Below are positions 43,470-45,941 of a stretch of DNA of 64,000 nucleotides, piece by piece. Source of the stretch: a virus (taxonomy: Duplodnaviria; Heunggongvirae; Uroviricota; Caudoviricetes); IMG/VR virus record IMGVR_UViG_648028025_000010; one strand, 5' to 3'. The number at the start of each line of letters is the position of its first letter. The stretch's first letter is position 1. Made by a program: the position numbers and the translations under genes. A model generated the notes under the pieces. That model searched no databases and had not been told where the DNA came from. It saw only the letters and a list, made by a program, of their open reading frames with translations.

Positions 43470-45941
43470 ATGAGTAAAGTCTTTATTTGCGCCGCTATTC
43501 CTGACGAACTGGCAACAAGGGAAGAAGGCTCTGTGGCTGTAGCCACAGCCATTGAAGCTGGCGACGAACGCCGTGCTCGAGCAAAATTTCACTGGCAGTT
43601 CCTGGAACATTATCCGGCTGCTCAGGACTGCGCTTATAAATTTATTGTCTGCGAGGATAAACCTGGCATACCCCGCCCTGCCCTCGATTCATGGGATGCT
43701 GAATATATGCAGGAAAACCGCTGGGATGAGGAGTCTGCTTCTTTTGTCCCGGTTGAGACTGAATCCGATCCGATGAACGTCACTTTTGACAAGCTGGCCC
43801 CTGAAGTACAGAACGCTGTCATGGTTAAGTTCGACACATGTGAAAACATCACCGTTGATATGGTTATTAGCGCACAGGAATTGTTGCAGGAAGACATGGC
43901 AACATTCGACGGACATATCGTTGAAGCGTTGATGAAAATGCCAGAAGTTAACGCCATGTATCCGGAGCTTAAGTTGCACGCCATTGGGTGGGTTAAGCAT
44001 AAATGTATTCCTGGTGCTAAATGGCCCGAAATTCAGGCAGAGATGCGCATCTGGAAAAAACGTCGCGAAGGTGAACGCAAGGAAACCGGAAAATACACGT
44101 CTGTTGTTGATCTCGCCCGCGCCAGAGCCAATCAACAGTACACTGAAAATTCAACAGGAAAAATCAGCCCGGTCATTGCTGCCATTCATCGCGAATACAA
44201 GCAGACATGGAAAACACTGGATGACGAACTGGCCTACGCTCTCTGGCCTGGTGATGTGGATGCCGGAAACATTGACGGCAGCATCCATCGCTGGGCAAAA
44301 AAAGAAGTTATCGACAACGACCGCGAAGACTGGAAGCGTATCTCGGCATCAATGCGCAAACAGCCTGATGCCCTTCGCTACGACCGCCAAACTATTTTTG
44401 GCCTTGTCCGTGAGCGTCCGATCGACATTCACAAAGATCCCGTAGCACTGAACAAATATATCTGCGAATACCTGACGACAAAGGGCGTGTTTGAGAATGA
44501 AGAAACAGACCTGGGCACTGTTGATGTTCTCCAGTCATCAGAAACACAAACTGATGCAGTGGAAACTGAGGTATCTGATATCCCAAAAAATGAAACCGCG
44601 CCGGAAGCTGAACCATCTGTAGAGCGTGAGGGGCCGTTCTATTTCCTCTTCGCAGATAAGGACGGAGAAAAATACGGTCGCGCAAACAAACTTTCTGGTC
44701 TGGATAAGGCACTGGCTGCTGGCGCCACTGAAATCACAAAAGAAGAATATTTTGCCCGAAAAAATGGCACATACACGGGCTTACCGCAAAATGTAGATAC
44801 CGCTGAAGATTCAGAACAACCAGAGCCGATAAAAGTTACCGCTGACGAAGTAAACAAAATTATGCAGGCAGCCAATATCAGCCAGCCTGACGCCGATAAG
44901 TTGCTTGCTGCATCACGTGGTGAATTTGTTGAAGGGATTAGTGACCCGAATGATCCGAAATGGGTTAAGGGGATCCAGACCCGCGATTCTGTGAACCAGA
45001 ACCAGCATGAATCGGAACGGAACTACCAAAAAGCGGAACAAAACAGTCCAAATGCGTTACAAAACGAGCCAGAAACGAAACAGCCTGAACCAGTGGCGCA
45101 ACAGGAAGTGGAAAAAGCCTGCACCGCCTGCGGTCAGACCGGCGGCGGCAACTGCCCTGATTGTGGCGCGGTGATGGGCGACGCAACATACCAAGAAACA
45201 TTCGATGAAGAGTATCAGGTTGAAGTTCAGGAAGATGATCCGGAGGAAATGGAAGGCGCTGAACATCCACACAAGGAGAACACTGGCGGCAATCAGCATC
45301 ACAATAGCGATAATGAAACTGGCGAGACGGCAGATCACCCAATTAAGGTGAACGGTCATCACGAAATCACATCCACCAGCAGGACGTGTGACCATCTAAT
45401 GATCGACCTTGAAACCATGGGAAAAAATCCTGATGCCCCGATCATCTCAATAGGTGCAATATTTTTCGATCCGCAAACCGGAGATATGGGACCGGAATTT
45501 AGTAAGACTATCGATCTGGAAACTGCTGGCGGAGTCATTGATCGGGACACCATTAAATGGTGGCTTAAGCAATCACGCGAAGCGCAATCTGCCATTATGA
45601 CCGATGAAATCCCGTTAGATGATGCACTGTTACAATTGCGGGAATTTATCGACGAAAACTCCGGTGAATTTTTTGTTCAGGTCTGGGGAAATGGAGCCAA
45701 CTTCGACAACACGATTTTGCGCCGTTCATACGAACGGCAGGGGATCCCCTGCCCGTGGCGTTACTACAACGATCGCGATGTACGCACAATCGTTGAGCTG
45801 GGGAAAGCCATAGACTTCGATGCCAGAACGGCTATTCCATTCGAAGGTGAGCGCCATAATGCACTTGATGACGCCCGTTACCAGGCAAAATACGTTTCAG
45901 TTATCTGGCAAAAACTGATCCCGAGTCAGGCTGATTCTTAA
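43470..45941 (+). CDS. Large multidomain protein: N-terminal domain of unknown function, acidic linker, CxxC-x12-CxxC zinc ribbon, C-terminal DEDDh (DnaQ/RNase T-like) 3'-5' exonuclease domain
   Basis: 823 aa. Exo motifs MIDLETMG (Exo I), WGNGANFD (Exo II), HNALDDARYQAKY (Exo III with His). Zinc ribbon CTACGQTGGGNCPDCG. Occupies the position of Qin ydfE, which I recall as a fragment. Confidence 0.65.
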   Translation: MSKVFICAAIPDELATREEGSVAVATAIEAGDERRARAKFHWQFLEHYPAAQDCAYKFIVCEDKPGIPRPALDSWDAEYMQENRWDEESASFVPVETESDPMNVTFDKLAPEVQNAVMVKFDTCENITVDMVISAQELLQEDMATFDGHIVEALMKMPEVNAMYPELKLHAIGWVKHKCIPGAKWPEIQAEMRIWKKRREGERKETGKYTSVVDLARARANQQYTENSTGKISPVIAAIHREYKQTWKTLDDELAYALWPGDVDAGNIDGSIHRWAKKEVIDNDREDWKRISASMRKQPDALRYDRQTIFGLVRERPIDIHKDPVALNKYICEYLTTKGVFENEETDLGTVDVLQSSETQTDAVETEVSDIPKNETAPEAEPSVEREGPFYFLFADKDGEKYGRANKLSGLDKALAAGATEITKEEYFARKNGTYTGLPQNVDTAEDSEQPEPIKVTADEVNKIMQAANISQPDADKLLAASRGEFVEGISDPNDPKWVKGIQTRDSVNQNQHESERNYQKAEQNSPNALQNEPETKQPEPVAQQEVEKACTACGQTGGGNCPDCGAVMGDATYQETFDEEYQVEVQEDDPEEMEGAEHPHKENTGGNQHHNSDNETGETADHPIKVNGHHEITSTSRTCDHLMIDLETMGKNPDAPIISIGAIFFDPQTGDMGPEFSKTIDLETAGGVIDRDTIKWWLKQSREAQSAIMTDEIPLDDALLQLREFIDENSGEFFVQVWGNGANFDNTILRRSYERQGIPCPWRYYNDRDVRTIVELGKAIDFDARTAIPFEGERHNALDDARYQAKYVSVIWQKLIPSQADS

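What the first reader, a model, noticed from the sequence alone, without database searches (positions are those of the whole stretch)
43470..45941. Least-explained gene: an 823-aa protein combining an unknown N-terminal domain, an acidic linker, a zinc ribbon and a DEDDh 3'-5' exonuclease domain, with no partner annealase
It sits in the early-left position where lambdoid phages normally carry a recombination pair (Exo/Bet or RecE/RecT), but no annealase gene is adjacent. The catalytic domain is DnaQ/RNase T-like (DxE ... H-x-A-x-x-D), not the PD-(D/E)xK fold of lambda Exo or RecE. It is co-transcribed with the DicF/DicB/YdfD host-interference module. I recall this locus being a fragment (ydfE) in the K-12 Qin prophage, so the intact protein's function is effectively unstudied. 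Plausible roles are nucleic-acid processing in superinfection exclusion, anti-defence, or an RNA-directed activity.
Basis: partly seen in the sequence, partly recalled or inferred. Interest (0 to 1): 0.6.

Follow-up and report, generated by a model that had tools for sequence, protein, structure and literature searches.

The report
RecE-like scaffold with DexA-type exonuclease
This very common but unstudied E. coli prophage gene joins the poorly understood front part of the recombination protein RecE to a different, T4 DexA-like 3'-to-5' DNA exonuclease, and it has lost RecE's usual partner protein RecT.

Summary
The 823-aa ORF at 43470-45941 (+) is real, intact and under purifying selection in its folded parts. 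No annealase lies nearby.

The family is modular. Two alternative heads and a shared ~100-aa core combine with alternative C-termini.
- With the RecE PD-(D/E)xK nuclease, recT follows in 72 of 72 loci.
- With the DEDDh nuclease, no annealase follows in 0 of 108 loci; xis-int follow instead.
- With a third C-terminus (possibly Rad52-like), a Gp157 gene follows.

The closest solved relative of the nuclease is T4 DexA, a DNA 3'-5' exonuclease. The gene occurs in about 65% of complete E. coli genomes. K-12 ydfE is its IS2-truncated stump.

My best reading is a solo DNA-end-trimming variant of RecE that acts in phage recombination or replication-intermediate processing. An exclusion, defence or scavenging role is not excluded. 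I rate it a new variant of known kinds, of moderate interest.

The parts
43470..45941 (+). Complete gene for the 823-aa RecE-scaffold/DEDDh exonuclease (equals WP_000048369-type 'exonuclease'; phrog_2082)
   Evidence: ORF. Full-length match to phrog_2082. 100% identical copies in O26 genomes are annotated 'exonuclease'.
43470..44189 (+). Head module N1 (aa 1-240). The model shows a small alpha/beta subdomain (aa 1-95) and a helical subdomain (aa 105-205). It is an alternative to the PF06630 head of RecE. No known fold relative was found.
44190..44504 (+). Core module N2 (aa 241-345, helical). This is the one segment shared by essentially all family members, including true RecE proteins.
   Evidence: phmmer domain map of 60 representatives. 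Alignment A1. tblastn gives 40-43% identity to the RecE proteins of Klebsiella phages and mEp237. dN/dS 0.12.
44505..44621 (+). Acidic, low-complexity linker 1 (aa 346-384)
   Evidence: 26% D+E and 3% K+R. dN/dS 0.77.
44622..44879 (+). Module M1 (aa 385-470). It is shared with other N1-head family members of several C-terminal types.
   Evidence: phmmer map. dN/dS 0.19.
44880..45179 (+). Module M2 plus zinc ribbon (aa 471-570; C551, C554, C562, C565). The shared block aa 474-621, which runs on into linker 2, is 74% identical to Rac-SA53 RecE residues 471-611.
   Evidence: BLASTP. NCBIfam PRK09709 partial match. Cys positions.
45180..45389 (+). Acidic/His-rich linker 2 (aa 571-640). It carries an antisense Chi octamer at 45373-45380.
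   Evidence: 27% D+E. dN/dS 0.74. Chi positions.
45390..45938 (+). DexA-like DEDDh 3'-5' exonuclease domain (aa 641-823; catalytic residues D646, E648, D746, H796, D801)
   Evidence: Pfam PF16473, E 2.4e-67. PDB sequence hit to T4 DexA, 8kel. Invariant catalytic columns.
42774..42825 (+). DicF sRNA, upstream in the same operon
   Evidence: Rfam RF00039, 76.7 bits.
43000..43376 (+). dicB (43000-43188) and ydfD (43185-43376), immediately upstream
   Evidence: ORFs. PGAP names in the identical E2865 locus. phrog_1251 and phrog_1092.
46014..48972 (+). Excisionase gene split by an IS66-family (ISCro1-like) element. This is the gene that normally follows the exonuclease directly.
   Evidence: Sequence. 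ORFs. Annotation of the identical locus in strain E2865. Intact arrangement in HannyBb and mEp460.

Best explanation
**What it is (well supported).** The gene encodes a member of the RecE (exonuclease VIII) scaffold family, expressed from the phage early-left (dicB-type) operon. Its order of parts is:
- head N1
- conserved core N2
- acidic linker
- M1
- M2 with a zinc ribbon
- acidic linker
- a C-terminal nuclease

RecE's C-terminal PD-(D/E)xK 5'-3' nuclease has been replaced by a T4 DexA-like DEDDh nuclease. The recT partner gene has been lost along with it.

**How it most likely works (inferred).** The DEDDh domain removes nucleotides from free 3'-OH ends of DNA by two-metal catalysis, using D646, E648, D746, H796 and D801. 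The N-terminal scaffold does whatever it does in RecE. The most plausible jobs are oligomerisation or tethering the enzyme to DNA ends, replication intermediates or a host partner.

The protein acts alone, without a phage annealase. It would trim 3' tails of phage or other linear DNA during lytic growth. Strand pairing would be left to host functions (RecA, RecBCD/Chi) or to spontaneous annealing of the exposed 5' tails.

**Shown:** the architecture, the intact catalytic residues, purifying selection, the modular swapping, and the strict correlation between nuclease type and partner gene.

**Inferred:** DNA as the substrate, the polarity, the role of the scaffold, and the biological role in recombination or processing of replication intermediates.
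For: - **Domains.** PF16473 at E 2.4e-67. A partial RecE equivalog match covers aa 246-623. aa 474-621 are 74% identical to Rac-SA53 RecE. aa 136-336 are 27-43% identical to the RecE proteins of HK225, Gifsy, Klebsiella phages and mEp237.
- **Modularity.** Among about 60 full-length representatives, all four head-by-nuclease combinations exist, and further C-termini occur as well.
- **Partner correlation.** In PD-(D/E)xK-type loci, recT follows in 72 of 72 loci with enough flank, at a median gap of 6 nt. The same holds for N1-head PD-(D/E)xK loci L050 and L051. In DEDDh-type loci, 0 of 108 have RecT or Erf, and xis-int follow instead.
- **Same genomic slot.** The gene occupies the position that recE-recT hold in HK225, mEp237 and Rac-SA53.
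- **Viable phages.** HannyBb, mEp460 and Tritos carry the gene with no annotated annealase or Gam anywhere. HannyBb has 7 Chi sites in 45 kb, which fits reliance on host RecBCD.
- **Link to recombination modules.** A stand-alone homologue of the nuclease (58.7% identical) sits inside the erf-ssb-endonuclease-exo-abc2 recombination module of P22-like phage Bas106.
- **Nearest characterised relative.** T4 DexA is a 3'-5' DNA exonuclease that functions in intron homing (a double-strand-break repair process) and in host DNA scavenging (PMC12153337).
- **Catalytic residues** are invariant.
- **Selection.** dN/dS is 0.1-0.2 in the domains.
- **Precedent (background knowledge).** 3'-5' resection can drive annealing-based joining, as with the vaccinia polymerase exonuclease and E. 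coli XthA in in-vivo cloning.
Against: - No experiment exists on this protein or on the RecE N-terminal region. The review PMC11611040 calls the latter 'of unknown function'.
- A 3'-5' nuclease yields 5' tails, which are not the canonical substrate for RecA or for annealases.
- The loss of the annealase could equally mean that the protein has left recombination altogether.
- Pfam and PGAP label the domain an exoribonuclease, after Rv2179c.
- One paper assigns an anti-T4 defence role to a stand-alone E. coli homologue.
- The association counts come from related prophages and are not phylogenetically independent.
- The N-terminal model has no informative fold match, so the role of the scaffold is a guess.
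Confidence: 0.45

Rival explanations
1. It is an exclusion or defence nuclease. When the dicB-type operon is expressed, through leakiness or on induction, the DexA-like domain degrades the DNA of superinfecting phages, for example hydroxymethyl-cytosine DNA of T-even phages. This would resemble the 'HREX' role reported for the stand-alone E. coli homologue EcD, and it would work alongside DicB-mediated exclusion.
For: - PMC12153337 reports that plasmid-borne EcD, an E. coli DexA homologue with conserved catalytic residues, digests T4 DNA and protects against T4.
- The gene is co-located with DicB in 79 of 80 loci of this lineage.
- It is retained intact in a prophage whose xis and int are both destroyed by IS elements.
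- It is present in about 65% of complete E. coli genomes, with up to 10 matching places per genome.
Against: - The operon is behind the prophage repressor, so the gene should be silent in lysogens (background knowledge of the dicA/dicB operon).
- The residues said to read 5hmC are not conserved here: W152 is Tyr and D169 is Ala, while the D90 equivalent, whose absence defines the defence variants, is present.
- EcD is a stand-alone protein that starts at the MID.ET motif, not an 823-aa fusion.
- The sister lineage with the same nuclease lacks DicB.
- The scaffold is otherwise tied to recombination enzymes.
Confidence: 0.2
2. It serves in host-DNA scavenging or host takeover. During lytic growth the exonuclease degrades nicked or broken host DNA from 3' ends to supply nucleotides, which is the other classical role of T4 DexA.
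For: - The domain is homologous to DexA, whose T4 annotation reads 'involved in T4 DNA replication and host DNA degradation' (PMC12153337 abstract).
- The gene sits in an early operon next to the host-interference genes dicF, dicB and ydfD.
Against: - Temperate lambdoid phages are not known to degrade the host chromosome (background knowledge).
- No accompanying endonuclease is seen in the operon.
- This role does not explain the large conserved RecE scaffold or the exact replacement of recE-recT.
Confidence: 0.1
3. It is an anti-defence nuclease. It would destroy a nucleic-acid component of a host immune system that has a free 3' end, such as retron msDNA or another ssDNA or RNA guide or signal.
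For: - RecE-family proteins are already linked to retron biology in the literature, judging by the title and abstract of bioRxiv 10.1101/2020.06.22.160242, which were listed but not read in detail.
- Rapid module shuffling and acidic linkers are common in counter-defence proteins (background knowledge).
Against: No direct evidence was obtained. No PADLOC or anti-defence search was run, and no defence system is consistently adjacent. The partner-gene correlation points to recombination logic instead.
Confidence: 0.1
4. It is an exoribonuclease, as the database name suggests (Rv2179c-like, RNase T-like). It would trim the 3' ends of RNAs, for example processing or turning over DicF or host sRNAs and tRNAs.
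For: - The Pfam family is named after the M. tuberculosis 3'-5' exoribonuclease Rv2179c, and PGAP calls many copies '3'-5' exoribonuclease'.
- The gene lies downstream of an sRNA gene in the same operon.
Against: - The only PDB sequences matched are T4 DexA chains (8kel and the related entry 8ken), a DNA exonuclease. No Rv2179c chain was among the matches even with a profile.
- The scaffold, the zinc ribbon and all alternative C-termini (RecE nuclease, putative Rad52-like, ParB-like) are DNA-related.
- The sister lineage lacks DicB; DicF was not scored in those loci.
Confidence: 0.08

Closest known systems
RecE / exodeoxyribonuclease VIII of Rac-type and Gifsy/HK225-type lambdoid phages
   Same: - It occupies the same position in the early-left operon, just before xis-int.
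- It shares the conserved N2 core, the M2 and zinc-ribbon block (74% identity to Rac-SA53 RecE over 148 aa) and the acidic linkers.
- It has the same overall layout: a long non-catalytic N-terminus with a C-terminal nuclease.
   Different: - The C-terminal nuclease is DEDDh (expected 3'-5') rather than PD-(D/E)xK (5'-3').
- The head is N1 rather than PF06630.
- No recT follows.
- The score against the RecE equivalog model is 281 bits against a cutoff of 1269.
T4 DexA (exonuclease A; PDB 8kel) and the PF16473 'Rv2179c-like' DEDDh family
   Same: The C-terminal 183 aa belong to this family. All five catalytic residues align. DexA is the nearest solved structure by sequence.
   Different: - Identity to DexA is only about 28%.
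- DexA and most phage homologues are stand-alone proteins of about 180-230 aa, whereas here the domain is the tail of an 823-aa RecE-type scaffold.
- DexA's W152 and D169 are Tyr and Ala here.
EcD / 'HREX' defence exonuclease (PMC12153337)
   Same: It is an E. coli-encoded DexA homologue with conserved DEDDh residues.
   Different: - EcD is a short stand-alone protein that begins at the MID.ET motif.
- Its sequence could not be retrieved, so its identity to this domain is unknown.
- The defining substitutions are not matched here.
Two-component phage recombinases (exonuclease plus annealase: lambda Exo/Beta, RecE/RecT, Erf modules)
   Same: It has the same genomic slot and the same timing of expression. 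A stand-alone homologue of the nuclease lies inside an erf-ssb-abc2 module in phage Bas106.
   Different: No annealase is present in the operon or, as far as annotated, in whole phage genomes. The expected polarity of the nuclease is opposite.

Membership tests
PF16473 / DexA-like DEDDh 3'-5' exonucleases | Match to the family HMM above the curated cutoff | tested here: met
   226.5 bits against a cutoff of 27, E 2.4e-67, aa 642-813, covering profile positions 2-177 of 177.
PF16473 / DexA-like DEDDh 3'-5' exonucleases | Five catalytic residues D-E-D-D-h in the three Exo motifs | tested here: met
   D646, E648, D746, H796 and D801 are invariant in alignment A4, which includes T4 DexA (D7, E9, D119, H186, D191).
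PF16473 / DexA-like DEDDh 3'-5' exonucleases | 3'-5' exonuclease activity, and the substrate (DNA versus RNA) | not testable with these tools
   This needs enzyme assays. The nearest characterised relative acts on DNA.
RecE (exodeoxyribonuclease VIII) | C-terminal PD-(D/E)xK nuclease domain (DUF3799-like) | tested here: not met
   There is no PF12684 match here, whereas the RecE proteins of Rac-SA53, HK225 and mEp237 all have one.
RecE (exodeoxyribonuclease VIII) | recT annealase gene immediately downstream | tested here: not met
   0 of 108 DEDDh-type loci have it, against 72 of 72 PD-(D/E)xK-type loci. In the window, xis follows.
RecE (exodeoxyribonuclease VIII) | Score above the NCBIfam equivalog cutoff | tested here: not met
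   281 bits against 1269. Only model positions 271-600 are matched.
RecE (exodeoxyribonuclease VIII) | Homology of the non-catalytic N-terminal/middle region (N2 core, M2 and zinc ribbon) | tested here: met
RecE (exodeoxyribonuclease VIII) | PF06630 (Exonuc_VIII) N-terminal head | tested here: not met
   There is no PF06630 match. The head is the alternative N1 module.
HREX-type defence DexA homologues (EcD) | Conserved 5hmC-reading residues (DexA W152 and D169), and loss of the tetramer residue D90 | tested here: not met
   In alignment A4, W152 aligns with Tyr, D169 with Ala, and D90 with Asp. Identity is only 28%, so the alignment is approximate.
HREX-type defence DexA homologues (EcD) | Protection of the cell against T-even phage | not testable with these tools
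   This needs plating assays.
Two-component (exonuclease + annealase) phage recombinase | A single-strand annealing protein encoded with the nuclease | tested here: not met
   There is no RecT or Erf homologue in 116 loci. The upstream ORFs are PHROGs of unknown function or regulators. The whole HannyBb genome has no annotated annealase. Beta, Sak and Sak4 seeds were not used, so this is not exhaustive.

The most novel reading that the evidence does not exclude
The long, enigmatic N-terminal region of RecE is an autonomous, swappable platform. It would deliver different DNA-end enzymes to one common site, such as DNA ends, a replication intermediate or a host protein. The enzymes seen so far are a 5'-3' nuclease that works with RecT, a DexA-like 3'-5' nuclease that works alone, a putative Rad52-like annealase that works with Gp157, and a ParB-like domain. 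On this reading, the DEDDh version present in most E. coli genomes defines a previously unrecognised single-protein, annealase-independent pathway of phage DNA-end processing or recombination of opposite polarity.
Probability: 0.2. Interest if true: 0.7.

Novelty: new variant of a known kind. Interest (0 to 1): 0.5.

Why it matters
- **Prevalence.** Matches covering at least 80% of the gene occur in 3536 of 5426 complete E. coli genomes, and genomes with any match have up to 10 matching places. EHEC strains are included. Yet I found no functional study of it.
- **An open question becomes testable.** What the first ~600 residues of RecE do has been open since RecET recombineering was developed. 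Full-length RecE, but not the nuclease domain alone, boosts linear-linear recombination. Because the scaffold is shared across fusions with different enzymatic tails, its function can be probed by domain swaps.
- **Possible practical use.** If the DEDDh version supports annealase-free end joining, it could be a new tool for in-vivo DNA assembly.
- **Relevance to pathogen evolution.** It would also bear on how Shiga-toxin-era prophages recombine into mosaics.
- **Alternative.** If it is instead an exclusion nuclease, it is a very widespread prophage-borne defence.

Tried and rejected
- **A single-sequence AF2 run on aa 385-823 failed**, with pLDDT 37.
- **A PDB profile search with the N2 core** returned only compositional hits to de novo TIM barrels.
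- **The second homologous-protein search** returned mostly partial E. coli entries and few diverse homologues. This limited the depth of the alignment used for the structure prediction.
- **Retrieving EcD through its primer sequence failed** in the viral, genome and metagenome collections. The published gene was probably synthetic.
- **One literature search was wasted**, because 'RecE' matched 'receptor' as a prefix.
- **The promoter and terminator scan of 40800-46200** found nothing above the shuffled expectation. Co-transcription therefore rests on gene order and on knowledge of the K-12 dicB operon.
- **I considered and rejected that the annealase was deleted by the IS66 insertion.** Intact phages show exo-xis-int with only a 72-nt gap between exo and xis.
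- **I considered and rejected that this is simply mis-annotated RecE.** The nuclease fold and the partner gene both differ.
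Full report
**Observation**

The window holds an ATG-initiated ORF of 823 aa at 43470..45941 on the + strand.

- Pfam places a PF16473 'Rv2179c-like' 3'-5' exonuclease domain at aa 642-813 (E 2.4e-67; 226 bits against a cutoff of 27). It also gives a weak RNase_T match over the same stretch.
- The DEDDh residues D646, E648, D746, H796 and D801 are present. 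They are invariant in an alignment with five phage homologues and T4 DexA.
- A CxxC-x7-CxxC zinc ribbon lies at C551-C565.
- Two acidic low-complexity linkers lie at aa 346-384 and aa 571-640.
- A pairwise Nei-Gojobori comparison with the mEp460 copy gives dN/dS of 0.10-0.22 in the folded modules and about 0.75 in the linkers. This is the pattern of a real multidomain protein joined by free-evolving tethers.

**Context**

The window is an EHEC O26-type Qin-like prophage at the rspB/ynfA site. Identical copies of the gene are annotated 'exonuclease' in many O26:H11 genomes.

- Upstream on the same strand lie a CI/DicA-like repressor gene, small ORFs of unknown function, DicF (Rfam 76.7 bits, 42774-42825), dicB and ydfD.
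- Downstream, the excisionase gene begins 72 nt after the stop codon. It is split by an IS66-family element, and the integrase gene is split by an IS3-family element.
- In the intact phages HannyBb, mEp460 and Tritos, the same gene (92-99.8% nucleotide identity) is followed directly by xis and int. The IS element therefore did not remove an annealase.
- No promoter-like or terminator-like site exceeds the shuffled expectation between the repressor gene and the gene end. Co-transcription is plausible but was not shown here.

**What the N-terminal two-thirds are**

They are not an orphan.

- NCBIfam's RecE equivalog model matches aa 246-623 to model positions 271-600. The score of 281 bits is far below the cutoff of 1269.
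- aa 474-621, including the zinc ribbon, are 74% identical to Rac-SA53 RecE residues 471-611.
- tblastn of aa 1-345 finds aa 136-336 at 27-28% identity in the RecE proteins of HK225, Gifsy-1/2 and SPN3UB. It finds aa 242-336 at 40-43% identity in the RecE proteins of Klebsiella phages and mEp237.

An exhaustive HMMER search of 1.84 billion cluster representatives with aa 1-345 found only 168 relatives, so the family is small.

I mapped modules on the ~60 full-length representatives. The result is a combinatorial family:
- The head is either N1 (this protein) or PF06630, the classical RecE head.
- A ~100-aa helical core, N2, is present in almost all members (alignment A1).
- The M1 and M2/zinc-ribbon modules are optional.
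- The C-terminus is DEDDh, the RecE PD-(D/E)xK nuclease, or one of at least three further types.
- All four head-by-nuclease combinations occur.

**Structure of the scaffold**

AlphaFold2 on aa 1-345, with a shallow 17-sequence alignment, gave a mean pLDDT of 78.9. The model has three subdomains: alpha/beta at aa 1-95, helical at aa 105-205, and helical at aa 245-340.

**Partner-gene correlation**

I fetched IMG/VR loci and screened all their ORFs with RecT and Erf seeds.

| C-terminal type | Head | Loci with at least 1.2 kb downstream | Annealase found | What follows |
|---|---|---|---|---|
| PD-(D/E)xK (RecE nuclease) | PF06630 | 72 | RecT in 72 of 72 (79 of 80 loci overall) | recT, median gap 6 nt |
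| PD-(D/E)xK | N1 | 2 complete loci | RecT in 2 of 2 | recT |
| DEDDh | N1 (this protein) | 75 | none | xis-int |
| DEDDh | PF06630 | 33 | none | xis-int, then the prophage end |
| Third type | N1 | 2 loci examined | not an annotated annealase | a Sipho_Gp157 gene |

- In total, 0 of 108 DEDDh-type loci have RecT or Erf.
- The third type comprises 20 representatives. Examples are the Stenotrophomonas phage BUCT708 protein of 710 aa and locus L052.
- Its C-terminus carries a 'KKSLTDAxKKALSxLGF' motif. It gives sub-threshold Rad52_Rad22 Pfam hits in 5 of 8 members (best E 0.004) at the expected profile positions. This suggests, but does not prove, a fused Rad52-like annealase.
- One Enterobacter protein fuses the scaffold to a ParB-like domain.
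- The counts come from related prophages and are not phylogenetically independent. Even so, the pattern holds across two head types and several integrase types.

**The nuclease module**

- Its only PDB sequence match is T4 DexA (8kel, E 1.5e-6 with the single sequence). No Rv2179c chain was among the matches, even with a profile.
- tblastn finds the domain in 1292 phage records, mostly as a stand-alone protein of about 180-230 aa. T4 DexA is about 28% identical.
- A 58.7% identical stand-alone copy in the P22-like phage Bas106 sits between erf-ssb-endonuclease and abc2. That places it inside a recombination module.
[quoted passage not shown] It also reports that a stand-alone E. coli homologue, EcD, digests T4 DNA and protects cells, a strategy the authors name 'HREX'.
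- In my alignment, the residues that paper ties to 5hmC recognition (W152, D169) are Tyr and Ala in this protein. The D90 equivalent is retained. The defining HREX substitutions are therefore not met, with the caveat that identity is only 28%.
- EcD's sequence could not be recovered.

**Interpretation**

The firm conclusion is architectural and evolutionary. This is a RecE-family protein in which the 5'-3' PD-(D/E)xK nuclease and its RecT partner were replaced by a DexA-like DEDDh nuclease that has no partner gene.

For the mechanism, I commit to the following at about 0.45 confidence. The protein is a solo DNA 3'-end-trimming enzyme. It acts on phage DNA ends or replication and recombination intermediates during lytic growth. 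The scaffold provides the same unknown tethering or oligomerisation function as in RecE. Pairing is left to host functions.

Evidence consistent with this:
- The complete phage HannyBb has no annotated annealase or Gam, but it has 7 Chi sites in 45 kb.
- 3'-5' resection is known to drive annealing-based joining in other systems, namely the vaccinia polymerase exonuclease and E. coli XthA. That point is background knowledge and was not tested here.

Rivals, with my confidence in each:
- exclusion or defence of the HREX type (0.2)
- host-DNA scavenging (0.1)
- anti-defence (0.1)
- an RNA-directed role, as the database name implies (0.08)

None of these is excluded by the computations.

**Novelty and literature**

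- Databases already name the protein 'exonuclease' or '3'-5' exoribonuclease'.
- Newer Pfam families (PF27430 and PF27432) are precomputed on it. I could not read their descriptions.
- Full-text searches for ydfE, Rv2179c with phage, the Pfam identifiers, and DEDDh/prophage/RecE found no functional study and no description of the domain swap.
- I rate it a new variant of known kinds (RecE scaffold family and DexA-like nucleases).
- Interest is moderate. The gene is extremely common, occurring in about 65% of complete E. coli genomes with up to 10 matching places per genome. The modular pattern also gives a handle on the long-open question of what the RecE N-terminal region does.

Noticed in passing
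window 45373-45380 (- strand Chi; CCACCAGC on the + strand): A Chi octamer on the antisense strand sits exactly at the junction between linker 2 and the DEDDh domain. It is present in 79 of 80 close homologues. Antisense Chi sites also recur in the linker upstream of the nuclease module in RecE-type genes and in 19 of 36 genes of the type with the RecE head plus DEDDh. This may be relevant to module shuffling, or it may simply be inherited.
   Followed up: partly
window 33672-34760 (- strand ORF, 362 aa, YdfU/DUF968-like with an HNH-like motif): Four Chi octamers, two in each orientation, cluster inside this one gene at 34031, 34083, 34616 and 34673. The homologous HannyBb gene has five. About 0.03 would be expected by chance.
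   Followed up: no
L006:3920-6052 (Stenotrophomonas phage BUCT708), L052:6001-8370, and 18 further representatives: A third family branch joins the same N1+N2 scaffold to a ~290-aa C-terminus with a Rad52-like 'KKSLTDAxKKALSxLGF' motif. It gives sub-threshold PF04098 hits in 5 of 8 members. In the two loci examined (L006, L052) it is followed by a Sipho_Gp157 gene. It may be a scaffold-annealase fusion.
   Followed up: partly
protein P0347 (Enterobacter cloacae, 555 aa): The N1+N2 scaffold is fused to a ParB-like domain (precomputed PF17762; phrog_1033 at E 4e-68). This is another alternative tail for the scaffold.
   Followed up: no
window 46107-48800 and 50068-51224: The prophage is immobilised twice. 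An IS66-family (ISCro1-like) element splits xis, and an IS3-family element splits the integrase gene. An ISEsa1-like transposase lies at 37591-38931. The exonuclease gene between them is intact.
   Followed up: partly
window 41896-42513 (+), 205 aa; antisense ORF 42175-42495 (-), 106 aa: An early-operon ORF of unknown function (phrog_35040, full length) carries a CxxC motif. An antisense ORF with a hydrophobic, membrane-like sequence overlaps it. Neither resembles an annealase.
   Followed up: no
L009:3998-4546 (phage CurroJimenez_Bas106): A stand-alone 182-aa homologue of the DEDDh domain (58.7% identical) lies between erf-ssb-endonuclease and abc2 in a P22-like recombination module.
   Followed up: partly
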